Position numbers and translations under genes: made by a program. Positions 27,287 through 40,839 of a stretch of 42,665 nt of DNA are shown piece after piece. Every line of letters begins with the position of its first letter. Within the stretch, counting starts at the first letter, position 1. The stretch comes from Sedimentisphaerales bacterium (GTDB lineage Bacteria > Planctomycetota > Phycisphaerae > Sedimentisphaerales > Anaerobacaceae). The notes beneath the pieces were generated by a model. It was given only the letters and a program-made list of their open reading frames with translations. It did no database searches and had not been told where the DNA came from. The DNA lies in contig JAVVFI010000001.1 of the NCBI GenBank assembly GCA_032250555.1, forward strand, positions 1 through 42,665, read 5' to 3'.

Positions 27287-29230
27287 TCAATTCGTTTCGC
27301 CCTTAATTTCCTCCATAACCTGGCCGCATTTGAGCATAGAGGCGCCAAAATAAGGATTACGGATATCCTCATCTGTTTGCAGCCAGTCTGCTCCCTTGTT
27401 ATTAAATGCCATCGGGCAATGAATATTGTAAAGGATCTTGCCCTGATACACTCCAAATTGCCCGACAACAGCAATAAGCTCATTGGAAAGCCCTTCAAAT
27501 CCTTCACGCATCGGCTCAATTGCATTGGCTGTTTTTATCTTATCTAATGCGGCCTTCATCTTCTTGCTGTTAGCCATCCACACATTATGAGCTTTGTCAC
27601 TGACCAAACCCATTTCAACCGCAGAAAGCGCTTCCAGTGTCTCGTTAGCCGCACGGGCAGCGCCTTCCTTCTCATCAGAAGCCAGGGCCTCATGTAATAA
27701 TAAATACTTTTCGACAACTCCCCAAAGCTGCCTGCGATACTCATCGGGCACTTCAAATATCTCGTTCTTATGACCGCTTTCCGCACTCATCATACTGGGC
27801 TTGGCCTGTATCTGAAGGGCCGAATCAATCTTAAAATTGCCGTTTGTAACAACAATCTCTCCTTCGGCGAGCCCTTCTTTAACCAAATAGTAATCACCCG
27901 CTCTTGGGCCAAGAACTACCTGCCTGCCCTCGAACGTCGGCTTATCTGCATTTGGTATTCGGACATACACAACTGCACGTTTACCTGTTATCAAAGGTGC
28001 AGTAGCGGGAATTACCAGGGGCGGCTGGTTGGGCTCATCGGCCGTAGCGAATAGTGACTCAGTAGGCACCAAATCCATTTCGCAAATGTCGCAGGTCCCC
28101 GCTTGATCCTTGACAACAGACAGATGCATAGGACAAATCCACTGGCCTGCCAGTTCTGGATCCATTGCAGCACCGCCCTGGGCAACTTTCGCACGCAATA
28201 CACTCCTGACAAACATTCCGGGCTTGAGTTTGCCGTCAGTATTATCAATGTTGAGGCGGACTTTTACCGTCCTGGTCTTCGCGTCGAGTATGGGATCACG
28301 GAAGCTTATTTTGCCTTTGAAGACCTGCCCCGGATATGCTTCCGTTAAGAACTCGACTTCCTGTCCGTATCGAATCCAGGGCAAATCAGACTCATAAGCA
28401 TCCAGCTTAACCCACAAACGCGATAGGTCTGCGAGAGTATAAATAGGGGTACCGGTATTAACATACATACCTTCTGTGGCGTTTTTATGGATGACTACAC
28501 CACCCATGGGTGAATAAATCGTAATATGAGTGACTGGTTCACCGGCGTTTTCGATTATATAAATTTGAGCATTGGTAAGACCAAGTAATCGAAGTTTGTC
28601 CCTCGCCGCTTCAAGTGTGGCAAGAGTGGTTCTTTTCATCAGGTCGGAAGTATTGTCATTGATACTGCCTACGGCTTTTAGAGCCTGAAGAAGTTCTGCC
28701 TGTGCGCTGATTAGCTCAGGGCTGTAAAGATCGACCATATGGTCACCCTTGTTAACCGTAATGCCCGTAAAATCAACATAAAGCCGGTCGATCCTGCCGG
28801 GAACCCATGCCGTGATATTTTTTACTCGGGTCTCATCATAATCAACCTTACCGACCATGCGGATTTCGGCCTCGACAAATTTTCGCTCAACAGGGGTCGT
28901 TTGAACTTCCATAAGTTTTAAGGCCTCTTGCGAGAAAGCAATTTGCCTTTCGCCGACAACACCTTCTTGAGCAACTTCCGGTATCAAATCCATAAAGCAA
29001 ATCGGGCACTTACCTGGCTTGGGAAGGTGAAACTGCGGATGCATAGAGCATGTCCACGTCGTCTGTTTTTCTGCGGCAGCCTGTTCACCGGGACGTTCAT
29101 GCTCTTGGCCGGAATGGGATTCCTGCAAGAGCGAGTGAACAACATAACCTGCAAGAAAGGTTACAACAACAAGAATAACGGTCTTAAATACTCGACTACT
29201 CAATAACGATTTGGCTCGTGTCATTTTCAT
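27287..29230 (-). CDS. cusB: RND periplasmic adaptor (CusB-like MFP) with two heavy-metal-binding (HMBD) motifs and a DUF3347-like C-terminal domain
   Basis: WTCSMHPQFHLPKPGKCPICFMDL and WICPMHLSVVKDQAGTCDICEMDL resemble the HMBD pattern. MFP barrel-sandwich/beta-barrel core lies between them. C-terminus has IHCPMAFNNKGADWLQ (DUF3347-like). Start placed at the ATG 29230 (AGGTGG 5 nt upstream); the ORF track starts at a GTG at 29239. Confidence 0.8.
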   Translation of the reverse strand: MKMTRAKSLLSSRVFKTVILVVVTFLAGYVVHSLLQESHSGQEHERPGEQAAAEKQTTWTCSMHPQFHLPKPGKCPICFMDLIPEVAQEGVVGERQIAFSQEALKLMEVQTTPVERKFVEAEIRMVGKVDYDETRVKNITAWVPGRIDRLYVDFTGITVNKGDHMVDLYSPELISAQAELLQALKAVGSINDNTSDLMKRTTLATLEAARDKLRLLGLTNAQIYIIENAGEPVTHITIYSPMGGVVIHKNATEGMYVNTGTPIYTLADLSRLWVKLDAYESDLPWIRYGQEVEFLTEAYPGQVFKGKISFRDPILDAKTRTVKVRLNIDNTDGKLKPGMFVRSVLRAKVAQGGAAMDPELAGQWICPMHLSVVKDQAGTCDICEMDLVPTESLFATADEPNQPPLVIPATAPLITGKRAVVYVRIPNADKPTFEGRQVVLGPRAGDYYLVKEGLAEGEIVVTNGNFKIDSALQIQAKPSMMSAESGHKNEIFEVPDEYRRQLWGVVEKYLLLHEALASDEKEGAARAANETLEALSAVEMGLVSDKAHNVWMANSKKMKAALDKIKTANAIEPMREGFEGLSNELIAVVGQFGVYQGKILYNIHCPMAFNNKGADWLQTDEDIRNPYFGASMLKCGQVMEEIKGETN

Positions 29231-29294
29231 TTCAGCCACCTATTATGTTGTAATATTACAATAGTAATTCGAGACAACCAAATGAACGATTGAA

Positions 29295-30602
29295 TCACTT
29301 TTCCAGAGCACCGCTGCTGATCGAGGACAGTTCCGTCCCGATAAGCATTTCCAGTTCAGCTAATTTCTGCTGATTATTCGTAACGACCCTTTCGTAGTCC
29401 AGCTCATATTTAAGCAGCATGCGCTGGGCATCTATAAGCGAGAGAAAATCTACCGTGCCTGCTTTATAGGCGGTTTCGGATGCCTGAACAAGCTCCTCGG
29501 CCTTGGAAACTAAAACATCCCCATAAAGATGTGTCTTTCTTCGACTATCTTCTATATCGTATAGAACCTCGAATACTCTCGATAGTAATTTGTTTTCGAC
29601 ATCTGTTCTTTGCGATTGAATTTTCCTTACATTCGCTTTTGCCTGTTGCTCAGCAGCCTTATAGCTGTTCTGCCACAGGGGGATATTCATTGAAAACATT
29701 AAAATCACAGGATCATCGCCGCTGCCTTTAACTCCGGGAGAAACCGCTCCATCGGTCTGAATCCAATCGAGACCTACTCCTATATCAGGATAGAATTTCT
29801 TTTTTGCAAGCTTCACACTGCTTTTTGCCGCCTGAATTTCCCAGCTAAGCTCGGCAAGCTCAGGATTCGCTCTTTTTAACGCCTGAATTATATGCTGCCG
29901 GTCAAGCGGTACATTTTCGGGCTGACTTTTTTCGGGCCAGGCCAATTCTGCATCAATTGGCCGATTAAGCACTGAATTAAGTTTTGCAACTGTCGGCTCT
30001 TTGAGCTGCTCCAGACTTTTTAAGATATCCTCAAGTTTAGCTAATTCCACCTGGACACGAATTATGTCAGGATGTATCGCTGCGGCTGTTAAGTATTTGA
30101 TTCGTGCGACTTCTTCGAAATGCTGAAGCAGTTCGAGATTCTGTTTTGCAATATCGATAGCCGTGGCAAGATATGCGAATTCGTAAAAAGCCTCTTTTAC
30201 CTGCCTGAATAGTTTCAACTTTGTTGTTTCGTATCTTTGCTTTGCAGCTTGTGCCTTTGCTGCGGCCACATCGGTTCTGGCCTGGAGTTTGCCAAACCAG
30301 GGGAATACCTGCATGATACCGAATTTTTGTTGCTGAGGGCCGGTCCGTGTTTCGACTTCCTCGATAAAATATCCGTATGTAAATTTCGGGTCACTTAATG
30401 CTCCTGCTTGTGGAATCTGCTCTAACGCCGCCTTCCACTGCTCAAATTTAGCCTCCAGTTCTGCATTATTGAGAGAGGCATAACGAAGATAATCCGAAAG
30501 TACGTATAAATCATTTGCATCAGCCGGCTGCTGCGAAGCTTTTGCGCACTGAACGAAAACAAATACTATTACTCCCAAAGTTAAAGCGGCTCGTTTGTTC
30601 AT
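29295..30602 (-). CDS. cusC: TolC-family outer-membrane efflux protein (CusC-like)
   Basis: 435 aa. Signal peptide. Two-repeat coiled-coil/beta-barrel OEP pattern. Operon position upstream of the MFP. Confidence 0.8.
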   Translation of the reverse strand: MNKRAALTLGVIVFVFVQCAKASQQPADANDLYVLSDYLRYASLNNAELEAKFEQWKAALEQIPQAGALSDPKFTYGYFIEEVETRTGPQQQKFGIMQVFPWFGKLQARTDVAAAKAQAAKQRYETTKLKLFRQVKEAFYEFAYLATAIDIAKQNLELLQHFEEVARIKYLTAAAIHPDIIRVQVELAKLEDILKSLEQLKEPTVAKLNSVLNRPIDAELAWPEKSQPENVPLDRQHIIQALKRANPELAELSWEIQAAKSSVKLAKKKFYPDIGVGLDWIQTDGAVSPGVKGSGDDPVILMFSMNIPLWQNSYKAAEQQAKANVRKIQSQRTDVENKLLSRVFEVLYDIEDSRRKTHLYGDVLVSKAEELVQASETAYKAGTVDFLSLIDAQRMLLKYELDYERVVTNNQQKLAELEMLIGTELSSISSGALEK

Positions 30603-31159
30603 ATTTGTCCCTCAATATTATCGACCTTCTTCTCTTTTTTCTTCTGATTTGCCATAGAAAGCTCTCTTACCAGCTCTTCTATTTCATTTGATAAATTCAT
30701 CAGAAATTCTTTAGAGGACATATCCAGAGCTTCTGATTCTTTGGCTATTGACCGAATTTTCTGTGTTCGATTAGAAAGAGCAGTTAACGACAAATCCGGT
30801 ACACTGCGATCAATTTCATCCAGTAAAAGCTGAACCCCTTCAGCTATTTCCGAAATTTCGGTAATATTTGATTCAATTTCAAGAGAGCTTAAATCCCCTC
30901 GCGTTATACCATACAGCTTCAGGTACAAATCATTTATAGGTATAACTACTGTTTTATATAGAACCGCATACAGTGTCAAGTAAATGAGTGCACCTAGAAC
31001 CAGCACATGCCAACTGTGCTCTAATATGAGCCCTAATACAGTCTGCCCCGGAGTAGAAATATATTGGTGTACTGCATATACCGCCATTCCTAAAGCAATC
31101 ACTAAAGCCGAGTATCCTGCAACTATCGATGCTAATGAATTTTCTCGTTTACTTTTCAT
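30599..31159 (-). CDS. Orphan two-TM + HAMP-like + coiled-coil membrane protein
   Basis: 186 aa. Two hydrophobic helices flank a short His-containing loop (HQYISTPGQTVLGLILEHSWH). VVIPINDLYLKLYGITRGDLSSLEIE...ISEIAEGVQLLLDEI fits the HAMP pattern. Its stop overlaps the cusC start (ATGA at 30599..30602). Confidence 0.55.
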   Translation of the reverse strand: MKSKRENSLASIVAGYSALVIALGMAVYAVHQYISTPGQTVLGLILEHSWHVLVLGALIYLTLYAVLYKTVVIPINDLYLKLYGITRGDLSSLEIESNITEISEIAEGVQLLLDEIDRSVPDLSLTALSNRTQKIRSIAKESEALDMSSKEFLMNLSNEIEELVRELSMANQKKKEKKVDNIEGQI

Positions 31160-31267
31160 GAGAAATTACCCCATTAAGCAATCTTTATTCTATCCCAAAA
31201 ACATATTTTAAGTCCATAGCAATTCAATATTAAAAAAAATTAATCAGATTTATTTTTACGGTAATAT

Positions 31268-31549
31268 TTACACTCTGCGTTTTTGATGAATCAATTTGAG
31301 AATTTCATCCAGCTTTTGCTGTTTTTCCCTCTCCGAGCTTCCTTTTATAGCTTGAGTTACACAGCTTTGAAAGTGTTTTTCGATAATATTTTCTTCGACT
31401 CCGACAAGCGCTCCTTTGATAGCGTATATCTGGTTTAAAATATCAATGCAGTATTTGCGACCTTCAACCATCTTTTGGACGCCTCGAACCTGTCCCTCAA
31501 TTCGCCTTAATGCGACCAGATTATCTTCATGACTTGGGTGTTTCTTCAT
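31268..31549 (-). CDS. csoR: CsoR/RcnR-family metal-sensing transcriptional repressor (CsoR-like, x-C-H-C)
   Basis: 93 aa. LRRIEGQVRGVQKMVEGRKYCIDILNQ...EKHFQSCV shows the conserved Cys...His-x3-Cys Cu(I) ligand pattern. First gene of the cus cluster. Confidence 0.85.
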   Translation of the reverse strand: MKKHPSHEDNLVALRRIEGQVRGVQKMVEGRKYCIDILNQIYAIKGALVGVEENIIEKHFQSCVTQAIKGSSEREKQQKLDEILKLIHQKRRV

Positions 31550-31638: not shown

Positions 31639-32757
31639 TTAGTCCGATATCGTGCCGCCTGCAACGATATTATCAGCGTTATTATAAACCACAAGCCTTT
31701 GACCTGGACAAGGTGCGAATTGAGGCAGGTCAAAATCGACTGTTATAGAATTTTCACCAATATTAGTGAGTTTGCAAGGTTTAGGATCACCGTAGGAACG
31801 GATTTTCCCGAAGAATTTCCTGATCGGGACAAGTTCTTCAGGAATGAGCACATTTATCCGGTTTGCTCTGACGGTATGAGTGCTCACTTCTTCTCTTGAA
31901 CCTAATGCAATCGTGTTTGCCTCAGCATCAATCTTGCCGACATACAGTGGCTTACCGCCGGCATAACCAATACCCTGCCTTTGGCCAAGAGTGTAGTGAG
32001 CAATGCCTTTATGCGTACCAATTATGTTCCCCTGCATATCCGTTATGTCACCCTGCCGATTGGCCTCAGCGTCATCCAGAGCCAATCGATAATCACCCTC
32101 TCCCGCAAAACAAAGTTCCATACTTTCAGCTTTGTCCGCAACACTCAGATTTAATTGAGCGGCAGTCGAACGAACCTCATCTTTTGTCAACTCGCCTAAC
32201 GGCAGAATAAACCTCTGAAGTTTTTCTCTGGAAATTCCATATATAAAATAGCTCTGGTCCTTGGTTTGATCTTTCGCCCGGCCAAGCCGCGTCTTACCAT
32301 CAGCTTTGGAAACTCGCGCATAATGACCCGTAGCAAGATAGCTAATCCCGAATGTTTCCTCCAGGAAATCCCAAAGCAGGGAAAACTTAAGGAGCGTATT
32401 GCAGTCCACACAGGGATTGGGAGTTTCACCCCTCGAATAAGATTGACGAAATTGCTTTATTATCAGCTCTTCGAAAGGTTCAGTAACATCGACAAAATAA
32501 TGAGGTATATTCAATTCACCGCACACAAAGGCGGCATCGGCGCCGCAGCATCCTCTTTTATTTGTATTGCACGAGACAGGTATCTTCATCGTGATACCTA
32601 ATACGTCCCAGCCTTGCTCTTTCAGCAGATAGGCCGTAACGCTGCTGTCAACTCCACCGCTCATTAATACAGCGACAGGTTTTGAGCGTTCCTTGTCGGC
32701 TCGCCAGGGCGAAAAACTCGGCCCCAATAACTTGATATTAAACTTATCGGTTGTCAT
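31639..32757 (-). CDS. mnmA: tRNA-specific 2-thiouridylase MnmA
   Basis: 372 aa. VAVLMSGGVDSSV PP-loop and conserved Cys (NPCVDCN). Typical length. Confidence 0.9.
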   Translation of the reverse strand: MTTDKFNIKLLGPSFSPWRADKERSKPVAVLMSGGVDSSVTAYLLKEQGWDVLGITMKIPVSCNTNKRGCCGADAAFVCGELNIPHYFVDVTEPFEELIIKQFRQSYSRGETPNPCVDCNTLLKFSLLWDFLEETFGISYLATGHYARVSKADGKTRLGRAKDQTKDQSYFIYGISREKLQRFILPLGELTKDEVRSTAAQLNLSVADKAESMELCFAGEGDYRLALDDAEANRQGDITDMQGNIIGTHKGIAHYTLGQRQGIGYAGGKPLYVGKIDAEANTIALGSREEVSTHTVRANRINVLIPEELVPIRKFFGKIRSYGDPKPCKLTNIGENSITVDFDLPQFAPCPGQRLVVYNNADNIVAGGTISD

Positions 32758-32772: not shown

Positions 32773-33693
32773 TTATTCGAACAGTGCCGTGCTGATATAT
32801 CGCTCGGCTGTGTCGCAAAGGACAGCAACTATCAGTTTGTCCGCATTTTCCTGTTTTTTACCTATCTTGATAGCTGCGGCCGCTGCGGCACCGGCTGATA
32901 TACCGGTAAAAATACCTTCTTCTTTAGCCAGGCGTTTTGCCATATCAAATGCCTCGGCATTTGATATCTGCACAACCTCATCAACAACTTCTAAATCCAA
33001 AACATCAGGGACGAAACCCGCCCCAATGCCTTGAATCATATGCGGGCCGGGCTTGCCGCCCGAAAGAACAGGTGATTCCGCCGGTTCAACAGCAACGATT
33101 TTGACGGATGGTTTGCGCGATTTCAGCACTTCTCCAACACCGGTTATTGTGCCGCCGGTTCCTACACCGGAAACAAAAATGTCCACTTGTCCATCGGTAT
33201 CAGCCCAAACCTCTTCAGCGGTTGTTTCTCTATGTATCTGGGGATTCGCAGGATTAAGAAACTGCTGTGGCATAAAAGCGCCATCGGTTGTTTCCACGAT
33301 TTCATTGGCCTTATTGATCGCGCCGGTCATACCTTCTTCTGCAGGTGTAAGTACAAGTGTGGCACCGAATAGCTTGAGTATCTTTCTTCGCTCGATAGTC
33401 ATCGATTCCGGCATAGTAAGTATCAGCTTATATCCCCTTGCCGCTGCGACCCACGCAAGTGCGATACCGGTATTACCGCTTGTAGGTTCAACGAGAGTAT
33501 CACCGGGCTTGATTTTACCGGCTTGTTCCGCTGACAATATCATATTTACACCGATACGGTCCTTGACACTGCTGGCTGGATTGAAGAACTCCAGCTTACC
33601 CGCTATCTTTGCTTTACAATCTCTGCTTACTCTGTTGAGTTGAACCAGCGGTGTTTTACCAATTAATTCAGTCATATCTTTTGCAATATTCAT
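32773..33693 (-). CDS. cysK: Cysteine synthase A (O-acetylserine sulfhydrylase)
   Basis: 306 aa. [10 protein letters not shown] (PLP Lys), [20 protein letters not shown] and [12 protein letters not shown] motifs. Confidence 0.9.
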
Positions 33694-33742: not shown

Positions 33743-35968
33743 TTATTTTTTTCGGCGCACTTTTACGAAAAAGTGATCACCGTTGTTTTTAATTTCCAAT
33801 ACTTCCTGGCCCTGATCGGCAAAGCTCGCCGGCACATTCCTTACCGGCTCCCCTTCATCAAGCAATACGCCAAGAATAGCACCTGTTTCGAGCTTTTCAA
33901 GCTCAAGTTTGGCTTTGACGAAGTTTAAGGGGCATCCGACACCACGCAAATCGATAACATGATTATTAGTCTCAGCTTCATCTACGATAGTTTCTTTTGC
34001 CACCGGCTCTATCTTAAACTTGAGATTGGCATCAAGGGACAGGTAAAGCTCTTCCACACGTCTTGTTAAATCCCGGGCCTGCGAATACAAATCCTCGATT
34101 GACTCTCTATCGCCCATACGCCAGTCAACCGCTTCGTCAAGGAGCTGCTGTGTCTGAGGTTTAACCCAGCCCGGTTCAATAAGACCTTTTGAAAATGCTG
34201 CAAATATTTCTCTGTCCTTTTTGGGCTCCAGACCGAACGTAACCATCAGCGCCCTGGCCGCGGCAACAACCGCTTTATAAATATTTTCACTGTGAACAGG
34301 TTCCGACTTGAGTGCATCTTTCGCTTCTTCGATATCCAGCTTGATTACGTCCGTCACACCAGCCCCGCACTCACCCGGCCCCCTGCCCGCCAGAGAAAAC
34401 GGCTCATTCGAACCATAGTCATAATAATAGTCCTCTGGAAATTGCTCCGAAGAAAAATCACTGTATTGACCAACCATTTTTTTTAGCTTTTCTTCATTAA
34501 TTTCACCGCCTTCAAAAGCTTCTGATAACAACTCAGGTATTTTTTTTGCCGGTACCGTACCAATTCTTTTGCCCAAATTTGCATCACCTTCAACAGTTTG
34601 TGCACCAACCAACACATCATAGCATGGCATCAGTCTGCCGTTGACTCTTTTGGCTTTTCCCTGGAATCCTATTGAGGCGATATAATGATGACCGCAGGAA
34701 TTCGGACAGCCGCTGATTCTTATGGTTGTCTTAGACAAATCGGCTGAAAAATCCTTATGGCTCAACTTCTCCGAAATCGCCTCAGCCAAACCTCTTGAAA
34801 GACATAGCCCGAGTTTGCATGTCGAAGCTCCGGCGCAGGCAACTATTTTGGAACCGCCGTCGCCAAATACATCAATGCTGAGTTTCTTAAGTTCGCTATG
34901 GACCTTGTCAATAGCTTCTTCGGCAACACCTGTAATGAGAAGGTCCTGCAGTTGAGTAGTCCTTATGAGTCCCTGGCCGTATTTAGCTGCGATTTGACCG
35001 ACTATGTTTAAATCATCCGCGGGTATATCGCCGTTTTTCAATCGTAATCGCACAGTAACCGACTTCTCAGGCGCCTTATATACTGAACTAATATCACGGA
35101 TTTGCGGCGATGGGTAAGGAAGCCCATCGGCCTTAAGTATATCTCTTTCGGCCCGGTACAGTTTGATAAATTCTTCAATACCGACTCTGGCGAGCACATA
35201 TCGTAATCTTGCTTTATGCTTGTTTGCCCTGTCACCGTATTGATCGAACAATCTCTTGACCGCCTCTGCAACTGCGAAAATCTCTTCAGCTTCTATGAAA
35301 TCTTCTATTTTCGCTGAAACTGCTGGATTCGAGCCAAGCCCCCCCGCGGCATAAACAGAAAAACCTTTCACTCCGTTCTTAATGTGGGCGAAAAAGCCAA
35401 GGTCTGCTATAGAAGCAAATGCACAATCCTTTGAACAGCCGGAAAAAACCAGTTTGAATTTTCTTGGCAAATTAAAAGAGCTTCTGTCCTGCAGGAGATA
35501 TTCTGCAGCGGCAATCGCATAAGGAGCAACATCAAATTCTTCTTCCGGACAAACCCCCGCCTCCGGACAGGCTGTAACATTACGAACAGTATTACCTCCC
35601 CCGCCGCGTGAAGAAAGCCCTGCTTCAAGCAGACCTTCCAGTACATCCGGCGTATTTTCGATATCTACCTCGTGAATCTGGATATCCTGTCTGGTAGTAA
35701 CGTGGATAATCCCATTGCCATAAGTCTTACTCAACTGGGCAATTCGTTCCAATTGATGCGGCAAAACCAGTCCCCCCCCGATACGTATTCGAATCATGAA
35801 TTTACCTGCTGTTCTTTGCTCATAAATTCCCATTGGTACTCGATAGGCTCTAAAAGCTACCGGTGACGTTTGGCCGTCAAGAAACTTTTTAACACCGCTG
35901 CGGTAGCCATGAGTATCTTCTTTGACGCTTTGGGGAATATGCAGAATTGGCTCTTGTTGTTCACTCAT
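33743..35968 (-). CDS. Assimilatory-type sulfite (nitrite/sulfite) reductase hemoprotein fused to an uncharacterised linker domain and a C-terminal TusA/SirA-like domain
   Basis: 741 aa. Siroheme-[4Fe-4S] Cys motifs CAGASTC (C-x5-C) and GCPNSC (C-x3-C). C-terminal about 75 aa carry VIDLRGVGCPLNFVKAKLEL, the CPxP active-site motif of TusA-like sulfurtransferases. Confidence 0.8.
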   Translation of the reverse strand: MSEQQEPILHIPQSVKEDTHGYRSGVKKFLDGQTSPVAFRAYRVPMGIYEQRTAGKFMIRIRIGGGLVLPHQLERIAQLSKTYGNGIIHVTTRQDIQIHEVDIENTPDVLEGLLEAGLSSRGGGGNTVRNVTACPEAGVCPEEEFDVAPYAIAAAEYLLQDRSSFNLPRKFKLVFSGCSKDCAFASIADLGFFAHIKNGVKGFSVYAAGGLGSNPAVSAKIEDFIEAEEIFAVAEAVKRLFDQYGDRANKHKARLRYVLARVGIEEFIKLYRAERDILKADGLPYPSPQIRDISSVYKAPEKSVTVRLRLKNGDIPADDLNIVGQIAAKYGQGLIRTTQLQDLLITGVAEEAIDKVHSELKKLSIDVFGDGGSKIVACAGASTCKLGLCLSRGLAEAISEKLSHKDFSADLSKTTIRISGCPNSCGHHYIASIGFQGKAKRVNGRLMPCYDVLVGAQTVEGDANLGKRIGTVPAKKIPELLSEAFEGGEINEEKLKKMVGQYSDFSSEQFPEDYYYDYGSNEPFSLAGRGPGECGAGVTDVIKLDIEEAKDALKSEPVHSENIYKAVVAAARALMVTFGLEPKKDREIFAAFSKGLIEPGWVKPQTQQLLDEAVDWRMGDRESIEDLYSQARDLTRRVEELYLSLDANLKFKIEPVAKETIVDEAETNNHVIDLRGVGCPLNFVKAKLELEKLETGAILGVLLDEGEPVRNVPASFADQGQEVLEIKNNGDHFFVKVRRKK

Positions 35969-35969: not shown

Positions 35970-36380
35970 CTATCTTTCCATAATCTTTATAGGCACTTCA
36001 GTTACATTAGTTCCTGCTATATGAAATCCTTTGACCACAGAACCATTATTGTTCTGCAGTGAAACAATTACATAAATCACATTCGGCGTAAGTGCCAGCT
36101 TGATATCCACTGCCGAAGGCCTGGCTGGCGTTTCAGGATGGCTGTGATATATCGCTAACATCTCAAGCCCGGCCGAGCGGATATCTTTGACTGTCGCAAA
36201 CTGCTCCTTTGGATCCATCATATAATGGGTGCTGCTGTTATCGGTATTTGTCATCTTATAAAACTTCTCGACCCTACCATTGATGCCTGCCAGAATTCCA
36301 CAGTCCTCGATTGGTGCAAGAGCTTTAGCTCTAGCAACCATCTGTTGAAATATTGTATTTGGAATCTCTAACTTCAGCAT
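35970..36380 (-). CDS. JAMM/MPN+ metalloprotease (Mec/HcyD/QbsD-like)
   Basis: 136 aa. PIEDCGIL (conserved Glu) and HSHPETPARPSAVD match the JAMM motif H-x-H-x7-S-x2-D. Confidence 0.85.
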   Translation of the reverse strand: MLKLEIPNTIFQQMVARAKALAPIEDCGILAGINGRVEKFYKMTNTDNSSTHYMMDPKEQFATVKDIRSAGLEMLAIYHSHPETPARPSAVDIKLALTPNVIYVIVSLQNNNGSVVKGFHIAGTNVTEVPIKIMER

Positions 36381-37189
36381 TGGCAGTCCTTGAGATCACA
36401 TACGACCTGTTCTTCGTCCTTCAATTCAGTTATTTGTGGTTTTTCACCGCACAGTGGGCAGTCGGGATTTCGGTTTAATTTGATCGAACGAAAGTTCATT
36501 TCGAGCGCATCATACGTCAACAATGTTCCGGTCAGCAGCTTGCCGAGGCCAAGCAAATACTTTATTGCCTCTGTTGCCTGCAATGAACCAATAACCCCGG
36601 CCAGAACACCAAGTACGCCGGCCTGCGAACACGATGGCACCGCATTGGCAGGGGGCGGAGCATTAAAGATACAGCGATAGCACGTGGTTTCGCCGGGCAA
36701 TATTGTTATCAACTGCCCGTGGAAACGCAAAATCCCTGCATGTGAAAGCGGTATCTTCTCAAAATAACACGCATCGTTAATTAGAAATTTGGCGCCGAAA
36801 TTGTCCGTACCGTCAATTACAAAATCGTACTTACGAATAACGTCTGATATATTCTTGGCATCCACTCTTCTCTGGTAGGTCTGGACGGTGACATCCGGAT
36901 TTATGGCCCGCATCTTGTTTTCGGCGGATTTAATCTTTTCGACGCCTACATCACTTGTATGATGGATTATCTGGCGTTGCAGGTTTGATAAATCCACCTT
37001 ATCATAATCTACAATCCCAATCGTTCCAACCCCGGCTGCGGCAAGGTATAATCCCGCCGGGGCGCCAAGACCGCCCGCACCTATAATCAACACTTTGGAG
37101 TTCAGCAGTTTTTCCTGACCTGCACCGCCAACCTGCTCCAGGATTATATGTCGGCTGTATCTTTCTATTTGTTTTTCAGTTAGAGACAC
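36374..37189 (-). CDS. ThiF/MoeB/HesA-family E1-like adenylyltransferase (HcyF/MoeZ-like, no rhodanese domain)
   Basis: 271 aa. GAGGLGAPAGLYLAAAGVG nucleotide loop, DLSNLQRQ, CYRC...CPLC zinc motif. GTG start preceded by GGGAGG, which is encoded by the Gly codons of the carrier gene. Confidence 0.85.
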   Translation of the reverse strand: MSLTEKQIERYSRHIILEQVGGAGQEKLLNSKVLIIGAGGLGAPAGLYLAAAGVGTIGIVDYDKVDLSNLQRQIIHHTSDVGVEKIKSAENKMRAINPDVTVQTYQRRVDAKNISDVIRKYDFVIDGTDNFGAKFLINDACYFEKIPLSHAGILRFHGQLITILPGETTCYRCIFNAPPPANAVPSCSQAGVLGVLAGVIGSLQATEAIKYLLGLGKLLTGTLLTYDALEMNFRSIKLNRNPDCPLCGEKPQITELKDEEQVVCDLKDCQC

Positions 37190-37391
37190 TTCCGCCTCCC
37201 ATAAAATATAAAAATTCCACTTTATCGTCGTCCTTTAGTACCGTCTCTTCAAACTTGCTTCTTTTCAGAATCTGCCCGTTGAGTTCCACCGACACCATAT
37301 CCGGCATCTGTACATTCTCCTGAGCCAGAAGTTGATTCACAGTCAAACCATCATTAATATTAGTCTCTTTGCCATTTATAACAAGATTCAT
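37176..37391 (-). CDS. ThiS/MoaD-family sulfur-carrier protein with a 4-residue extension after the Gly-Gly
   Basis: 71 aa. ThiS-like pattern (INGKE...LNGQIL...DDDKVEFLYFMGGG) ending GGG-SVSN. Its start overlaps the metY stop (ATGA). Confidence 0.8.
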   Translation of the reverse strand: MNLVINGKETNINDGLTVNQLLAQENVQMPDMVSVELNGQILKRSKFEETVLKDDDKVEFLYFMGGGSVSN

Positions 37392-38638
37392 TTTGTCTCC
37401 TTGAAAGCTATTTCTATTGCCTGCTGAAAATCAGCCTTTATATCCTCAAAATCCTCGATACCGACCGACACACGGACCATATCCTCGGTAACTCCCATTT
37501 TATTCTGTTCAGCAATGGTGAAATCATGAAATATAGTAGAGGCCGGATGTACGACCAATGTTTTCGCATCACCAAGATTTGCAAGGTTCTTTGCCAGCTT
37601 AAGTGAATCGATAAAACTAAATGCCCGTTGCTTATCACCAAGCCCGAAAGTGAGCAGCCCCCCGCCGCGACCGGCAAACAGCTTTGTAACTCTTTCGCTA
37701 AACCTGCTGTCCGCCAATCCCGGATAATTCACCCAGGATACTTTAGGATGGTCCTGTAGAATTTGGGCTAATTTCCCTGCGTTTTCATTGTGTTTGATCA
37801 TTCTTACCGGCAAAGTATCTAAACCCTGCAGCATAAGAAAGGAATTCATCGGAGCAGGACAGCCCCCAAGATCGCAATAAATTAGGTTCCGCAAATTCGC
37901 AAGGAAAGCTAATTGCCCGACTCTCTGAGATACATCTCTTATATCATCAAACACCCCTTTCCTCCAGTTATAGTTACCCGTATCGATTATTGCCCCGCCA
38001 ATCGCCGTGCCGTGCCCGTTAATAAACTTTGATGTCGAATGAACAACAATATCGGCACCGAAATCCACAGGCCTGATTATAAAAGGCGTAGTAACGGTAT
38101 TATCAACAACCAAAGGCAAATTGGCCTTGTGAGCAATATCAGCTATCGCCGCTATATCAGGTACATCCATTCGAGGATTGCCGATAGTCTCGATAAAAAT
38201 CAGTTTTGTCTTTTCATTGATAGCTTCTGCAAATTGATTCGTCTCTGCACCATCAACAAAGTTGGTCTTTACTCCGAACCGCCCTAAAGTATTTTCAAAT
38301 AAAGATACCGTCCCGCCGAATATGCCCGTCGCTGCGATTATCTCGTCTCCGGCCCTCGTTAAACTCATCACAACCGACGCGATAGCCGCCATACCGCTGG
38401 AAGTGGCAATGCAGCCGATCCCGTCTTCAAGCAGAGTCAGTCTGACCTCGAGAGCGGTAGTGGTTGGATTCGCAATCCGTGTATAGATATACCCCGGAGC
38501 TTTGCCGTGAAAAACATCGGCAAGCTCCTGGGCTGTTTTATAAGCATAGGATACGGTCTGGCAAATCGGTACTGCCGAAGCACCGCTGATACTATCGCCT
38601 GCAAAACCACCGTGAATTGACAAAGTTTCTGGTTTCAT
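37388..38638 (-). CDS. metY: O-acetylhomoserine sulfhydrylase (Cys/Met-metabolism PLP enzyme)
   Basis: 416 aa. HSTSKFINGHG (PLP Lys) and overall MetY/MetZ-like pattern (ETLSIHGG..., YTRIANPT). Confidence 0.8.
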   Translation of the reverse strand: MKPETLSIHGGFAGDSISGASAVPICQTVSYAYKTAQELADVFHGKAPGYIYTRIANPTTTALEVRLTLLEDGIGCIATSSGMAAIASVVMSLTRAGDEIIAATGIFGGTVSLFENTLGRFGVKTNFVDGAETNQFAEAINEKTKLIFIETIGNPRMDVPDIAAIADIAHKANLPLVVDNTVTTPFIIRPVDFGADIVVHSTSKFINGHGTAIGGAIIDTGNYNWRKGVFDDIRDVSQRVGQLAFLANLRNLIYCDLGGCPAPMNSFLMLQGLDTLPVRMIKHNENAGKLAQILQDHPKVSWVNYPGLADSRFSERVTKLFAGRGGGLLTFGLGDKQRAFSFIDSLKLAKNLANLGDAKTLVVHPASTIFHDFTIAEQNKMGVTEDMVRVSVGIEDFEDIKADFQQAIEIAFKETK

Positions 38639-38665: not shown

Positions 38666-39379
38666 CTATATCTGGTAGTCAAGCAAAGGCTTTGTGTGGA
38701 TACCGCACTCACCGCCGCACTTGCTCGTTCCGATCCAACGGCCGGCCCGCTCGTCAACACCCTGAGCGATTTTCGTGCATGGTGCGCAACCAAGAGACCT
38801 GTAACCTTCGTTATAAAGCGGATTAACAGGTACATCATTTAAGGCCAGATACTGCCATATTTCTCGTTCATACCATATAAGAATGGGATTTAGCTTTATC
38901 AGGCCTTTGTCCAGCTCTTCCACTTCTTTGTAATTCGTTCGCGTCCGGCCCTCGGTGCAGCGAAGCCCTGTGACCCAGCACTCAACGTTCATTTCCTGAA
39001 CAGCCTGCCTCACAGGTTGAACCTTTAGGATTTCGCAGCACTTGTCAGGATCGGTTTCATAAAGCTTATCCGAAATTTTTTCCTCATTGCTGAAAACCTT
39101 CAACTCCGGATATCTGGCAACTTCTTCTGCCATAAACTGCTTCGTTTCCTTTGGTTTGAACCTTGTAGTAACTATGAAGCCTCGAATCTTCGGACTTACA
39201 CGTTTCGCAAGATGCCATACAGCGCTGGAATCTTTACCAAGGCTGTTCGCAACTACCAGATTATCGCCGAATTCCTTGTAAGCACGATCAATCAATTCCA
39301 GTGAGCGATCTACCTTCTCTGCAAAATTTAGCTTCTCGACAAGCTCTACAACATTTTCTGTAACTTCTTGAATTAACAT
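38666..39379 (-). CDS. cysH: Adenylylsulfate (APS)/PAPS reductase, CysH family; Fe-S (APS-type) signature present
   Basis: 237 aa. PAPS_reduct fold. C-terminal ECGIH (the ECGLH motif). The CC (DKCCEIL) plus CAPC cysteine pairs are characteristic of the [4Fe-4S] APS-reductase subclass. Confidence 0.8.
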   Translation of the reverse strand: MLIQEVTENVVELVEKLNFAEKVDRSLELIDRAYKEFGDNLVVANSLGKDSSAVWHLAKRVSPKIRGFIVTTRFKPKETKQFMAEEVARYPELKVFSNEEKISDKLYETDPDKCCEILKVQPVRQAVQEMNVECWVTGLRCTEGRTRTNYKEVEELDKGLIKLNPILIWYEREIWQYLALNDVPVNPLYNEGYRSLGCAPCTKIAQGVDERAGRWIGTSKCGGECGIHTKPLLDYQI

Positions 39380-39491: not shown

Positions 39492-40535
39492 TCATAACAA
39501 TCCAACCTTATTCGCTATCACCGTAAACATGAATGACAAACCTAAAGCAATTAATGGTGCTATAACCCAAACCGTTAATAGTTTCTTTATGGTGGCTGTA
39601 CAGACAAAACTTACGCCTCTCCTATTTGTTTTGCCGATACCTAACCCGATTATTGCTGCCGTATTTAATTGAACTAATGATGTAGGGATACCTTTAATAA
39701 CTGATGCAAGTAATAGTAGAGTTGCTGTAACAACTGAGATTAAAATTGCCCCTAAAGGTCCAATCTCTGTTATCTCTTTTCCGGTTGTTTGCACTACCCT
39801 TTGACCAAAAAGTGAGCTTCCAATACCAAAGCATGGAGTAATAAGCAATACAGAAAGAATCATAATAAGTAAAGGATTCTCTCCGTTTGTACCAATATCT
39901 AATTCGTTAAAAACCATTGATGCTATAGGACCTGATACATTTGCTACATTATTAGAACCAATTGCAAAAGCTACATAACACGATGCCAGTATTACAATAA
40001 TTTTCAATGAAGGATGATTAGATATTTGTTCAAATTTAATTTTTCCTCTTTCATTTATTGGGCCCCATACAAATTTTCCAATAATTACTGTAATTCCAAA
40101 AGATACAAATGGTAGTATCAGCCATGTAGGTATTATTTCAAAAAACAGTTTGTGTGTTTTGAGAATATCAAAATAAATAGCAGGACCAATAAGGGCAAAG
40201 ACTGTAGCTTGACTTGTCGACTGAGGGATTCTTAACAAATTTGCCATCAAAATGGAAAGGCAGACTGATAACAAAATTATTGTGGTCAGGGTTATACCCA
40301 TTACTTCTCCCGGCAAGATACCTTTACCAATTGTCAACACGACCTTCTTGCCACCTATTATGGCACCAAAAAAGACAAACAACCCAAATAATCCCGGTAT
40401 CAAATCTTTCCTTATAATGTTTGAACCATAAGCGGCAGAAAAGGATGGTGATGTTCCACTTCCGCCCATATTTATTGCTAAAAACATTGCCACAAGGAAC
40501 GGAACAAGAAGTATAGAAAACATTGGCGATAACAT
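39492..40535 (-). CDS. PiT (Pho4)-family anion permease, probable sulfate permease (CysP-like) by context
   Basis: Polytopic. AIGSNNVANVSGP resembles the PiT signature GANDVAN. Start moved to the ATG at 40535 (GAGG 7 nt upstream), because the longer ORF to 40652 overlaps the DUF2061 gene. The B. subtilis sulfate permease CysP belongs to this family. Confidence 0.7.
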   Translation of the reverse strand: MLSPMFSILLVPFLVAMFLAINMGGSGTSPSFSAAYGSNIIRKDLIPGLFGLFVFFGAIIGGKKVVLTIGKGILPGEVMGITLTTIILLSVCLSILMANLLRIPQSTSQATVFALIGPAIYFDILKTHKLFFEIIPTWLILPFVSFGITVIIGKFVWGPINERGKIKFEQISNHPSLKIIVILASCYVAFAIGSNNVANVSGPIASMVFNELDIGTNGENPLLIMILSVLLITPCFGIGSSLFGQRVVQTTGKEITEIGPLGAILISVVTATLLLLASVIKGIPTSLVQLNTAAIIGLGIGKTNRRGVSFVCTATIKKLLTVWVIAPLIALGLSFMFTVIANKVGLL

Positions 40536-40617
40536 AAATCTACCTCTTAAATGGCGATTCTCATTAATGTTCTGTGTATTTTCAAAGTGCAGAAGGCATC
40601 TGAAATACTGTAAATCA

Positions 40618-40839
40618 TTATATTTGATACTCCGGCGACTTCTTTTTGCCAAAACTCAACCGATTCCACAGCCGTTCATGGAAGTAAAATGCCGCTATCT
40701 TAATTACTGTATCCAATAGGCCAATTTGTGCGGCTAAATCAAGTCTGCGAGTCAGAATCCAAGCAACTGCAAAAGTAACCACGGTCCCACCGGTACGCCA
40801 GGTTATTGCCTTCGCTATGCTTCTAGCATGTGATTCCAT
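40618..40839 (-). CDS. DUF2061-family small membrane protein
   Basis: 73 aa. SIAKAITWRTGGTVVTF...DTVIKIAAFYFHERLW matches my recollection of DUF2061, a family often linked to sulfate-activation genes. Confidence 0.6.
   Translation of the reverse strand: MESHARSIAKAITWRTGGTVVTFAVAWILTRRLDLAAQIGLLDTVIKIAAFYFHERLWNRLSFGKKKSPEYQI

What the first reader, a model, noticed from the sequence alone, without database searches (positions are those of the whole stretch)
33743..35968. Sulfite reductase hemoprotein with an extra linker domain and a C-terminal TusA-like CPxP domain
Seen in sequence: the 741 aa protein has the siroheme-[4Fe-4S] motifs CAGASTC and GCPNSC in its first roughly 450 aa. An acidic/helical segment of about 170 aa follows that I cannot assign (EINEEKLKKMVGQYSDF...VEELYLSLDANLKF). 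The last roughly 75 aa (33743..33965) carry VIDLRGVGCPLNFVKAKLE. Established knowledge: the Cys in the CPxP motif of TusA-type proteins carries a persulfide in sulfur relay systems, and assimilatory sulfite reductases normally release free sulfide. Inference: a covalently tethered persulfide/sulfide acceptor on the reductase would be a channeling device. It could deliver sulfur to the neighbouring carrier/E1 or to MnmA at the operon end.
Basis: partly seen in the sequence, partly recalled or inferred. Interest (0 to 1): 0.7.

Follow-up and report, generated by a model that had tools for sequence, protein, structure and literature searches.

The report
Sulfite reductase with built-in sulfur-relay module
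This gene encodes an assimilatory sulfite reductase permanently fused to a two-cysteine sulfur-carrier module; the fusion is real but widespread and already annotated, and it is the reductase of a known protein-thiocarboxylate pathway for making methionine, although what the extra module does has not been tested in any paper I could read.

Summary
The 741-aa ORF (33743..35968, minus strand) is real. It contains a ferredoxin-type siroheme sulfite reductase (aa 1-484), a conserved helical domain (aa 485-647), a roughly 21-residue tether, and a TusA-fold domain (aa 669-741).

- The TusA motif is CPLN, not CPxP. The Asn is invariant across the family.
- The "linker" is a conserved HEPN-like helical bundle. 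It has an invariant Cys534 in an FSLxGxGxGEC[GS]AG loop.
- A second Cx5C...Cx3C motif in the N-terminal half was overlooked.

The architecture is not rare. It occurs in at least 598 species across more than 15 phyla. NCBI names it "sulfurtransferase TusA family protein".

In about two thirds of well-flanked loci it sits beside a ThiS-like carrier (...FLYFMGGG plus a tail), a rhodanese-less E1, a JAB protease and MetY. This is the Wolinella HcyS-type neighbourhood that Iyer et al. catalogued in 2006, where SirA/TusA was predicted to replace rhodanese.

The channeling idea is therefore plausible and has been anticipated, but it is untested. About one third of loci, mainly Bacteroidales, lack a nearby carrier yet keep both cysteines.

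My best mechanism is a relay from the siroheme site to Cys534, then Cys679, then the carrier acyl-adenylate. Verdict: a new member of a known kind, of moderate interest.

The parts
34517..35968 (-). Sulfite reductase catalytic region (aa 1-484): two NIR_SIR_ferr + NIR_SIR pseudo-repeats of the ferredoxin-dependent NirA/SiR type
   Evidence: Pfam hits. PDB sequence hits to plant nitrite reductase, M. tuberculosis NirA and E. coli SiRHP. Foldseek hits 2akj, 1zj8 and 5h8y at E 1e-21 to 1e-16. LPRKFK carries K172 where plant nitrite reductase has Asn (alignment).
34694..34837 (-). Siroheme-[4Fe-4S] ligand motif C378-x5-C384 ... C421-x3-C425 (CAGASTC ... CPNSC)
   Evidence: The cysteines are invariant in alignment A1.
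35423..35569 (-). Second Cx5C...Cx3C motif in the N-terminal pseudo-repeat (C134, C140, C178, C182). It may be an additional cluster or cofactor site.
   Evidence: Invariant in the close homologues. Present in 23 of 65 diverse full-length representatives. Absent from plant nitrite reductase at the aligned positions.
34028..34516 (-). Conserved helical domain (aa 485-647). It consists of a short N-terminal helical segment, a Gly-rich Cys loop and a HEPN-like helical bundle (aa 535-643).
   Evidence: AF2 pLDDT 94-98. Foldseek hit 2hsb (HEPN protein) with TMt 0.64, rmsd 3.3 A, E=0.019. Pfam HEPN at E=0.095, not significant. Conserved down to ~30% identity.
34349..34399 (-). Cys loop FSLAGRGPGECGAGVTD (aa 524-540). 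Cys534 (codon 34367..34369) is invariant and sits at the N-terminus of the first bundle helix.
   Evidence: C534 is invariant in A1, A2 and A3. A GEC[GS]AG-type motif is found in 80 of 83 loci. The loop at aa 528-533 has pLDDT below 50, so it is flexible.
33965..34027 (-). Variable, disordered tether (aa 648-668) between the helical domain and TusA
   Evidence: pLDDT below 50. Length and sequence vary, from ~20 to ~45 residues in A2.
33746..33964 (-). TusA-fold domain (aa 669-741) with invariant Cys679 (codon 33932..33934) in a CPLN motif
   Evidence: Pfam PF01206 E=1e-15. TM 0.83 to E. coli TusA. The Cys aligns with the active Cys of the family. C679, P680 and N682 are invariant.
35970..36380 (-). 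JAB/JAMM metalloprotease (HcyD/Mec+-like), immediately upstream
   Evidence: Pfam Prok-JAB E=1e-23. Linked in 46 of 83 loci.
36374..37189 (-). E1-like adenylyltransferase (ThiF/MoeB type, 271 aa) with no rhodanese domain
   Evidence: Pfam ThiF E=1.6e-85 is the only domain found. NCBIfam MoeB subfamily hit is above its cut-off. The 52 linked E1 enzymes are all 246-282 aa.
37176..37391 (-). ThiS-like sulfur-carrier protein (71 aa) ending ...EFLYFMGGG-SVSN. It is made as a precursor whose tail must be trimmed.
   Evidence: TIGR01683 68 bits against a cut-off of 37. The FLYFMGGG + tail ending is conserved across phyla.
37388..38638 (-). MetY-type O-acetylhomoserine sulfhydrylase
   Evidence: Pfam Cys_Met_Meta_PP E=6e-124. 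NCBIfam OAH/OAS sulfhydrylase subfamily TIGR01326 at 484 bits, just below its 495-bit cut-off.
38666..39379 (-). CysH (P)APS reductase with a C-terminal ECGIH tail
32773..33693 (-). CysK cysteine synthase A, immediately downstream
   Evidence: TIGR01139 475 bits against a cut-off of 351. Linked in 45 of 83 loci.
31639..32757 (-). MnmA tRNA 2-thiouridine synthase, the last gene of the operon
   Evidence: NF001138 361 bits against a cut-off of 284. Linked in 17 of 83 loci, mainly PVC phyla.
39492..41386 (-). Head of the operon: Rrf2 regulator (40931..41386), DUF2061 (40618..40839) and a PiT/CysP-type sulfate permease (39492..40652)
   Evidence: The Rrf2-DUF2061-CysH order recurs in L001-L003 and other loci.

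Best explanation
**What it is**

The gene encodes the assimilatory, ferredoxin-type siroheme sulfite reductase ('Sir') of an HcyS-type protein-thiocarboxylate pathway. The enzyme carries its own sulfur-relay module.

**Proposed mechanism**
1. Sulfate is imported and reduced to sulfite by CysH. The siroheme domain then reduces the sulfite.
2. The reduced sulfur is picked up at the mouth of the active site by Cys534, which sits on a flexible Gly-rich loop of the helical domain.
3. The sulfur passes as a persulfide to Cys679 of the TusA domain. This domain swings on a ~21-residue tether.
4. The TusA persulfide attacks the acyl-adenylate of the ThiS-like carrier held on the rhodanese-less E1.
5. 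The second cysteine resolves the acyl-disulfide. This releases carrier-COSH and leaves a Cys534-Cys679 disulfide.
6. The next sulfide re-opens the disulfide to a persulfide, so the cycle is redox neutral.
7. MetY uses the thiocarboxylate to make homocysteine. JAB trims the carrier's C-terminal tail and releases the product. CysK, and in this lineage possibly MnmA, draw on the same sulfur supply.

**Shown here**
- The domain identities.
- The two invariant cysteines.
- The tether.
- The conserved gene neighbourhood.
- The absence of a rhodanese domain on E1.

**Inferred only**
- Every chemical step of the relay.
- The order of the two cysteines.
- The acceptor.
For: - **Domains:**
- **Sulfite-type KxK signature:** K172 lies where nitrite reductase has Asn.
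- **Cysteines:** C534 and C679 are invariant in all three alignments, down to 27-30% identity. Both Cys motifs are also found in most of the 150 representatives and in 80 of 83 loci. Both sit at helix N-termini.
- **Fusion is obligatory:** the module always follows a sulfite reductase. This holds in 81 of 83 loci; the other two are contig ends. Apparent stand-alone copies are frameshift artefacts.
- **Neighbourhood:** in 38 well-flanked loci from many phyla, E1 and ThiS are within 7 kb in 26, JAB in 24 and MetY in 25, usually in the order MetY/ThiS-E1-JAB-SiR.
- **E1:** 52 of 52 linked E1 enzymes lack rhodanese.
- **Carrier:** the carriers end FLYFMGGG plus a tail; the Campylobacteraceae ones end ...GGGA.
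- **Wolinella link:** a Wolinella sp. homologue has the same architecture.
- **Prior prediction:** Iyer et al. 2006 list this neighbourhood (Wsuc, Gmet and others) and predict that SirA replaces rhodanese.
- **Established knowledge:** TusA carries persulfide on this Cys. ThiI and MnmA use a persulfide Cys plus a resolving Cys when sulfur is inserted into adenylated substrates. W. succinogenes HcyS/HcyF/HcyD/MetY/Sir were described by Krishnamoorthy & Begley, JACS 2011. I could not read that paper and cite it from memory.
Against: - There is no biochemical evidence for any relay step.
- As I recall the Wolinella study (not readable here), HcyS thiocarboxylate formed from the adenylate with free bisulfide, so a relay is not strictly required.
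- 12 of 38 well-flanked loci, mostly Bacteroidales/Prevotella, have no carrier or E1 within 7-10 kb yet keep both cysteines. There the neighbours are siroheme-synthesis genes.
- The downstream CysK is an ordinary sulfide-using OASS-A type enzyme, which implies that free sulfide is also released.
- The CPxP motif is not met; the motif is CPxN. The closest sequence relatives of the TusA domain are TM0983, YedF and YeeD rather than E. coli TusA.
- Inter-domain geometry could not be examined. The full-length model has pLDDT 70, the module has pTM 0.56, and no coordinates were available.
- A natural Helicobacter homologue lacks the module (P0483).
Confidence: 0.55

Rival explanations
1. The module acts as a general persulfide outlet. 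It converts nascent sulfide into a protein persulfide that feeds any cellular acceptor (CysK-type synthases, MnmA, Fe-S or Moco pathways). It is not dedicated to loading the ThiS-like carrier, and the carrier linkage is only one of its uses.
For: About one third of well-flanked loci lack ThiS, E1 and JAB nearby but retain both invariant cysteines. In Prevotella the neighbours are siroheme-synthesis genes. CysK is adjacent in 45 of 83 loci and MnmA in 17 of 83. From established knowledge, E. coli TusA is pleiotropic, serving both tRNA thiolation and Moco synthesis.
Against: The order JAB-SiR with E1 and ThiS directly upstream is strongly conserved across phyla. Linked E1 enzymes universally lack rhodanese. 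The carrier system in Bacteroidales could simply be encoded elsewhere in the genome; I did not check this.
Confidence: 0.2
2. The module acts on the substrate side. The two-cysteine unit handles oxidised sulfur. It could act as the dithiol that resolves the CysH Cys-S-SO3- intermediate, releasing sulfite at the reductase. Alternatively it could bind thiosulfate or sulfite, as YeeD/TsuB-type TusA proteins do.
For: The best sequence matches of the TusA domain are TM0983, YedF and YeeD(TsuB). CysH lies within 10 kb in 45 of 83 loci. The Cys534 loop GPGECGAG shares its E-C-G core with the CysH tail GGECGIH, and both lie in Gly-rich flexible segments. A helix N-terminus next to a Gly-rich loop suits anion binding.
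Against: The motif similarity covers three residues and may be chance. CysH enzymes normally use thioredoxin or glutaredoxin. This model gives no reason for the tight linkage to the E1, carrier and JAB genes. No thiosulfate transporter (YeeE) is in the operon.
Confidence: 0.12
3. The module has a structural or docking role without sulfur chemistry. The helical domain and TusA-fold domain would mediate oligomerisation, electron-donor (ferredoxin) docking or regulation, and the cysteines would be structural or redox-sensing.
For: The electron donor of this clade is unknown. The helical bundle resembles non-catalytic HEPN domains and lacks an Rx4-6H motif. The TusA fold also resembles the IF3 C-terminal domain and the PrmA N-terminal domain.
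Against: Two single cysteines are invariant across roughly 30%-identity relatives, each at a helix N-terminus. One aligns precisely with the persulfide Cys of the TusA family. That pattern is hard to explain without thiol chemistry.
Confidence: 0.08
4. The enzyme is a nitrite reductase rather than a sulfite reductase.
For: The top sequence and structure hits are plant ferredoxin-nitrite reductases, and the best NCBIfam models are NirA and nitrite reductase.
Against: All those NCBIfam hits are far below their cut-offs. M. tuberculosis 'NirA', another top hit, is a sulfite reductase (established knowledge). K172 occupies the position of the nitrite-reductase Asn. The operon is entirely sulfur assimilation: CysP, CysH, MetY, CysK.
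Confidence: 0.03

Closest known systems
Wolinella succinogenes HcyS/HcyF/HcyD/MetY/Sir protein-thiocarboxylate methionine pathway (Krishnamoorthy & Begley, JACS 2011; cited from memory, paper not held)
   Same: The gene set is the same: a ThiS-like carrier with a GG + tail C-terminus, a rhodanese-less E1, a JAB protease, MetY, CysH and a sulfite reductase. Campylobacteraceae loci with the same fused reductase have carriers ending ...GGGA. A Wolinella sp. homologue has the NIR_SIR + TusA architecture.
   Different: The window comes from a Planctomycetota (Phycisphaerae-type) genome. It adds CysK and MnmA downstream and an Rrf2/DUF2061/CysP head. The carrier tail is SVSN rather than Ala. The reductase has an extra N-half cluster motif that is absent from the epsilonproteobacterial branch. 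As I recall it, the published pathway has the carrier adenylate reacting with free bisulfide. I could not check whether the paper addresses the reductase's C-terminal module.
ThiS/MoaD-JAB-E1 + SirA + sulfite reductase neighbourhoods, Table 1 row 4e of Iyer, Burroughs & Aravind 2006 (PMC1779556)
   Same: The window fits this class exactly. E1 lacks rhodanese, a SirA (TusA) domain is always present, and PAPS reductase, sulfite reductase and OAH sulfhydrylase are included. The authors predicted that sulfur from sulfite ends up on the carrier.
   Different: The passages I searched describe SirA only as a protein that is always present in these neighbourhoods. Here it is covalently fused to the reductase through a conserved Cys-bearing helical domain. 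That domain is not mentioned in the passages retrieved.
E. coli TusA (sulfur relay IscS -> TusA -> TusBCD -> TusE -> MnmA; also Moco synthesis)
   Same: The fold matches (TM 0.83, rmsd 1.5 A) and the reactive Cys is at the N-terminus of helix 1. MnmA is in the same operon.
   Different: The motif is CPxN rather than CPxP. The domain is fused rather than free. The presumed sulfur source is a reductase rather than a cysteine desulfurase. No TusBCD or TusE genes were identified in the operon. Sequence similarity to E. coli TusA itself is weak (E=0.12-0.15).
DsrAB-DsrC dissimilatory sulfite reductase system (functional analogy only)
   Same: A siroheme sulfite reductase is paired with a two-cysteine protein element on a flexible segment that could take sulfur at the active site. 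The window protein also keeps cluster motifs in both pseudo-repeats, as DsrA and DsrB do.
   Different: There is no DsrC/TusE fold. The enzyme is monomeric and of the assimilatory type, with only weak hits to DsrA/B. The cysteines lie about 145 residues apart on two different domains. The context is assimilatory.
M. tuberculosis CysO/MoeZ/Mec+/CysM cysteine pathway
   Same: It also uses a ThiS-like thiocarboxylate carrier, a JAB protease and a PLP-dependent sulfhydrylase.
   Different: M. tuberculosis MoeZ carries its own rhodanese domain, and CysM is specific for O-phosphoserine. Here E1 has no rhodanese. The PLP enzyme next to the carrier is MetY, and the cysteine synthase is an ordinary CysK.

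Membership tests
Siroheme assimilatory sulfite/nitrite reductase (NIR_SIR superfamily, ferredoxin-dependent monomeric type) | Two tandem NIR_SIR_ferr + NIR_SIR pseudo-repeats | tested here: met
   Pfam PF03460 and PF01077 each match two stretches. Foldseek hits to 2akj, 1zj8 and 5h8y.
Siroheme assimilatory sulfite/nitrite reductase (NIR_SIR superfamily, ferredoxin-dependent monomeric type) | Cx5C...Cx3C ligands of the siroheme-coupled [4Fe-4S] cluster in the C-terminal repeat | tested here: met
   C378, C384, C421 and C425 are present and invariant.
Siroheme assimilatory sulfite/nitrite reductase (NIR_SIR superfamily, ferredoxin-dependent monomeric type) | Sulfite-type substrate pocket (Lys-x-Lys in LPRKFK; nitrite reductase has Lys-x-Asn) | tested here: met
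   K170 and K172 are present. K172 aligns with the Asn of tobacco nitrite reductase. The significance of this residue comes from established knowledge.
Siroheme assimilatory sulfite/nitrite reductase (NIR_SIR superfamily, ferredoxin-dependent monomeric type) | Six-electron reduction of sulfite with bound siroheme | not testable with these tools
   This needs purified enzyme.
TusA/SirA family (PF01206) | Profile match above the curated threshold | tested here: met
   57.7 bits against a cut-off of 28.6.
TusA/SirA family (PF01206) | Two-layer alpha/beta sandwich fold | tested here: met
   TM 0.83 and rmsd 1.5 A to 3lvj_C; TM 0.81 to 3hz7.
TusA/SirA family (PF01206) | Conserved Cys at the N-terminus of helix 1 | tested here: met
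   C679 aligns with the Cys of TM0983, YedF, YeeD and Ta1170. The helix starts at aa 681.
TusA/SirA family (PF01206) | CPxP signature | tested here: not met
   The motif is CPLN. Almost every relative has CP[LMIF]N, and the Asn is invariant in the alignments.
TusA/SirA family (PF01206) | Carries a persulfide on the Cys | not testable with these tools
   This needs mass spectrometry or persulfide trapping.
HcyS-type protein-thiocarboxylate homocysteine pathway | ThiS-like carrier with a GG + C-terminal extension, plus a JAB protease to trim it | tested here: met
   The carrier ends ...FLYFMGGGSVSN. Prok-JAB E=1e-23. The ending is conserved across loci.
HcyS-type protein-thiocarboxylate homocysteine pathway | E1 adenylyltransferase without rhodanese, MetY, and a sulfite reductase in one cluster | tested here: met
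HcyS-type protein-thiocarboxylate homocysteine pathway | Carrier thiocarboxylate is the sulfur donor for MetY | not testable with these tools
   This is a biochemical property.
HEPN domain (for the helical middle domain) | Profile match above threshold | tested here: not met
   PF05168 E=0.095, 13.3 bits against a cut-off of 22.
HEPN domain (for the helical middle domain) | Helical up-down bundle fold | tested here: inconclusive
   2hsb with TMt 0.64 and E=0.019 is the only such hit. Helical bundles are a common fold.
HEPN domain (for the helical middle domain) | Rx4-6H catalytic motif | tested here: not met
   There is no R.{4,6}H match in aa 485-647.
DsrC/TusE family (considered as an analogue) | DsrC fold with two C-terminal-arm cysteines | tested here: not met
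   No DsrC or TusE hit appeared in Pfam, the PDB sequence searches or Foldseek.

The most novel reading that the evidence does not exclude
The enzyme may work like an assimilatory counterpart of DsrAB-DsrC. In this reading, Cys534 on its flexible Gly-rich loop enters the siroheme pocket. Together with Cys679 it intercepts a partially reduced, siroheme-bound sulfur as a persulfide or trisulfide. Free sulfide would then never be released, and sulfur would leave only as protein-bound sulfane handed to the carrier adenylate. In the Planctomycetota-type subgroup, the second Cx5C...Cx3C motif might bind a second cluster or siroheme, as in DsrA/DsrB. That would make these proteins evolutionary and mechanistic intermediates between dissimilatory and assimilatory sulfite reductases.
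Probability: 0.12. Interest if true: 0.75.

Novelty: new member of a known kind. Interest (0 to 1): 0.4.

Why it matters
**Open question.** How sulfur gets from inorganic sulfide onto ThiS/MoaD-type carriers when the E1 has no rhodanese domain is, to my knowledge, still unsettled. This family offers a compact, genetically self-contained system to test it: reductase, two-cysteine module, E1, carrier and protease sit in one operon.

**Two points I did not find in the literature I could search:**
- The middle domain is conserved and carries an invariant cysteine.
- The TusA signature is CPxN across the whole family.

Together they make specific, cheap predictions that Cys-to-Ser variants and persulfide or disulfide trapping could test.

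**Annotation.** Many of these roughly 750-aa sulfite reductases are named only 'sulfurtransferase TusA family protein'. That name hides the sulfite-reduction step in metabolic reconstructions of Planctomycetota, Bacteroidales, Campylobacterota and many uncultured phyla.

Tried and rejected
1. **Stand-alone module proteins.** Proteins of 280-330 aa on long contigs (P0349, P0170) looked like free 'helical + TusA' proteins. Their loci show a sulfite-reductase fragment directly upstream, and in L084 ThiF is also split into two pieces, so I read them as frameshift artefacts of those assemblies. Rejected.
2. **Middle domain as a bona fide HEPN.** The Pfam hit is sub-threshold, only one Foldseek hit supports it, and there is no Rx4-6H motif. 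I keep it as 'HEPN-like fold' only.
3. **Nitrite reductase.** Rejected on context and on K172.
4. **Riboswitch or other RNA control.** There are no Rfam hits in the window.
5. **Literature.** The Krishnamoorthy & Begley 2011 paper and the Tran et al. 2011 MetY structure paper are not held. Full-text searches on sulfite reductase with TusA, fusion, 'TusA domain', SirA-like or thiocarboxylate found no functional study of the fusion. The 'HcyS' search was swamped by homocysteine papers.
6. **Cys to siroheme distance.** I could not measure it because the tools return no coordinates, and inter-domain confidence is low (full-length pLDDT 70; module pTM 0.56).
7. **Second N-half cluster motif as a family hallmark.** It is restricted to a subgroup: 23 of 65 diverse representatives and none of the 110 hits to the Campylobacteraceae query.


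Full report
**1. Observation**

The ORF at 33743..35968 on the minus strand encodes 741 aa, as reported.

- **Reductase part.** Pfam places two NIR_SIR_ferr/NIR_SIR pseudo-repeats in aa ~49-480.
  - The closest solved relatives by sequence are plant ferredoxin-nitrite reductases, M. tuberculosis NirA and E. coli SiRHP.
  - A full-length AF2 model (pLDDT 70, pTM 0.70) matches the same structures.
  - All NCBIfam equivalog hits are far below their cut-offs.
- **Sulfite versus nitrite.** The substrate loop reads LPRKFK, and K172 aligns with the Asn of tobacco nitrite reductase. Every neighbouring gene belongs to sulfur assimilation. I therefore read the enzyme as a sulfite reductase.
- **TusA domain.** Pfam finds TusA at aa 671-738 (E=1.1e-15, above the gathering threshold).
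  - I folded the C-terminal module (aa 480-741) with a 61-sequence alignment, giving pLDDT 87.8.
  - Its last domain superposes on E. coli TusA with TM 0.83 and rmsd 1.5 A.
  - Cys679 aligns with the active Cys of TM0983, YedF, YeeD and Ta1170.

**2. Corrections and additions to the observation**

- **The TusA motif is CPLN, not CPxP.** CP[LMIF]N is found in almost all of 150 cluster representatives. Asn682 is invariant in alignments reaching ~30% identity.
- **The 'linker' is a domain.**
  - It has no significant Pfam hit; the best is HEPN at E=0.095.
  - It is conserved in 356 50%-identity clusters at E<=1e-10.
  - It folds as a helical bundle with pLDDT 94-98.
  - Its only structural neighbour is a HEPN protein (2hsb, TMt 0.64).
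  - It has no Rx4-6H motif.
- **A second invariant cysteine.** A Gly-rich, low-confidence loop, FSLAGRGPGECGAG, precedes the first bundle helix. It carries Cys534, which is invariant in all three alignments. Both motifs are present in 80 of 83 genomic loci.
- **A variable tether.** A disordered stretch (aa 648-668 here, ~20-45 residues elsewhere) links the bundle to TusA.
- **An extra cluster motif.**
  - The N-terminal pseudo-repeat has its own complete Cx5C...Cx3C motif (C134, C140, C178, C182).
  - It is invariant in close homologues.
  - It is present in 23 of 65 diverse full-length representatives.
  - It is absent from all 110 full-length hits to the Campylobacteraceae query.
  - Plant nitrite reductase has no Cys at these positions.

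**3. Distribution**

- The close homologues (72-100% identity) are all from Planctomycetota/Phycisphaerae metagenome-assembled genomes and share the same architecture.
  - Among the 80 best loci were Planctomycetota, Chloroflexota, Spirochaetota, Hydrogenedentota, Myxococcota, Armatimonadota, Clostridia/Halanaerobiales and Kiritimatiellia.
  - Also present were Verrucomicrobiota, Fibrobacterota, Calditrichota, Campylobacteraceae, Elusimicrobiota, Bacteroidales/Prevotella and Omnitrophota.
- A search with a Campylobacteraceae member added Wolinella sp., Sulfurospirillum, Helicobacter aurati, Zoogloeaceae, Accumulibacter and Deferribacteraceae. NCBI usually names these 'sulfurtransferase TusA family protein'.
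- The module follows a sulfite reductase in 81 of 83 loci; the other two are contig ends.
- Apparent free modules are frameshift-split genes.
- Occasional variants fuse the JAB protease as well (P0120, P0497). One Helicobacter species has lost the module (P0483).

**4. Context**

- **Gene order in the window (minus strand).** Rrf2, DUF2061, CysP-type permease, CysH, MetY, ThiS-like carrier, E1, JAB, SiR-TusA, CysK, MnmA. Three related Planctomycetota loci repeat most of this order but lack the CysP permease. One has CysK and no MnmA, and the other two have MnmA and no CysK.
- **Across 38 well-flanked loci of diverse phyla.** E1 and ThiS are within 7 kb in 26, JAB in 24, MetY in 25, CysK in 21 and MnmA in 7.
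- **E1.** All 52 linked E1 enzymes are 246-282 aa, so none has a rhodanese domain.
- **Carrier.** The carriers share the ending (E/D)FLYFMGGG followed by 1-15 variable residues. Here the tail is SVSN, and in Campylobacteraceae it is a single Ala.
- **Match to known systems.**
  - The single-Ala tail matches what I recall of Wolinella HcyS-Ala, which is trimmed by HcyD. That paper was not readable here.
  - Iyer, Burroughs & Aravind 2006 list exactly this neighbourhood type. They note the rhodanese-less E1 and an ever-present SirA, and they predict that SirA substitutes for rhodanese.
- **Exceptions.** Twelve of the 38 loci, mostly Bacteroidales/Prevotella, lack the carrier set nearby but keep both cysteines. 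In a Prevotella locus the neighbours are siroheme-synthesis genes.

**5. Mechanism**

Shown here:
- A sulfite reductase is permanently joined to two single, invariant cysteines.
- Each cysteine lies at a helix N-terminus.
- One sits on a flexible loop and the other on a tethered TusA domain.
- The gene lies next to an E1 that needs an external sulfur donor.

Inferred by analogy with ThiI and MnmA, which use a persulfide Cys plus a resolving Cys, and with TusA chemistry (established knowledge):
1. Sulfur from the siroheme site is taken by Cys534.
2. It is passed as a persulfide to Cys679.
3. It is delivered to the carrier acyl-adenylate.
4. The other Cys resolves the acyl-disulfide, giving carrier-COSH and a Cys534-Cys679 disulfide.
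5. The next sulfide re-opens the disulfide to a persulfide.

This cycle is redox neutral, and it explains why two cysteines are conserved. A fully extended 21-residue tether spans roughly 70 A, which is comparable to the size of the reductase. Reach is therefore plausible, but I could not measure it.

Arguments against exclusivity:
- The adjacent CysK is an ordinary sulfide-using enzyme.
- A third of loci lack a nearby carrier.
- As I recall the Wolinella work, free bisulfide suffices in vitro.

**6. Rivals**

- A general persulfide outlet (confidence 0.2).
- A substrate-side role (0.12). The module would resolve the CysH thiosulfonate or bind thiosulfate or sulfite. Support is the similarity to YeeD/YedF and a shared E-C-G core with the CysH tail.
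- A purely structural or docking role (0.08).
- Nitrite reductase (0.03).

**7. Novelty and verdict**

The neighbourhood class has been published and the fused architecture is common and annotated, so this is a new member of a known kind. I did not find the following three points in the literature I could search:
- the conserved middle domain with its invariant cysteine;
- the family-wide CPxN signature;
- the subgroup-specific second cluster motif.

These points sharpen the hypothesis into testable form. Interest is 0.4. The most novel reading that remains open is a DsrC-like interception of siroheme-bound sulfur, which I put at about 12%.

Noticed in passing
window 35423..35569 (-), aa 134-182 of the reductase: There is a second complete Cx5C...Cx3C motif (C134, C140, C178, C182) in the N-terminal pseudo-repeat. 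It is invariant in close homologues, present in 23 of 65 diverse representatives, and absent from all 110 hits to the Campylobacteraceae query and from plant nitrite reductase. It may be a second [4Fe-4S] or siroheme site, as in DsrA/DsrB. In the AF2 model these loops have low confidence, as do the true cofactor loops.
   Followed up: partly
window 37176..37391 (-); loci L001-L082: The ThiS-like carriers next to the fused reductase share a very strongly conserved C-terminus, (E/D)FLYFMGGG, followed by 1-15 variable residues (SVSN here; a single Ala in Campylobacteraceae). All are therefore made as precursors that need JAB trimming.
   Followed up: yes
window 38666..39379 (-) C-terminus and 34349..34399 (-): The CysH catalytic tail GGECGIH and the Cys534 loop GPGECGAG share an E-C-G core within Gly-rich flexible segments. 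This could be chance, or it could hint at related thiosulfonate or anion chemistry.
   Followed up: no
window 31639..32757 (-): MnmA is the last gene of the sulfur operon, starting 15 nt after cysK ends. The linkage recurs in 17 of 83 loci, mostly PVC phyla (Planctomycetota, Verrucomicrobiota and relatives). No TusBCD or TusE genes were identified in the operon, so direct TusA-to-MnmA transfer or sulfur-status coupling of tRNA thiolation are both possible.
   Followed up: partly
window 40931..41386 (-) and 41580..42014 (+): Two Rrf2-family regulators are divergently transcribed at the head of the operon. The one on the operon strand, followed by DUF2061, is conserved in related loci (23 and 21 of 83).
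   Followed up: partly
window 21935..31549 (-): Directly downstream lies a copper/silver-type efflux cluster. It comprises a CsoR-like repressor (31268..31549; family inferred from the sequence, not scanned), a small membrane protein, a TolC-like outer-membrane factor (29295..30602; also inferred), a CusB-like adaptor with two heavy-metal-binding domains and DUF3347 (27287..29239), a small Cys-rich ORF that may bind metal (26890..27249) and an RND pump (21935..25714).
   Followed up: partly
P0120 (805 aa) and P0497 (915 aa); P0483 (579 aa): Two architecture variants exist. In some metagenomic homologues the JAB protease is fused to SiR-TusA. In Helicobacter sp. MIT 14-3879 the helical + TusA module has been lost naturally.
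   Followed up: no
L084 (3395..4209 and 4818..6987), L085: Two assemblies split ThiF and the reductase into pieces, apparently through frameshift errors. This creates spurious 'stand-alone TusA-module' proteins in protein databases.
   Followed up: yes
window 19432..21912 (-): This 826-aa ORF has no Pfam hit at E<=1e-5.
   Followed up: no
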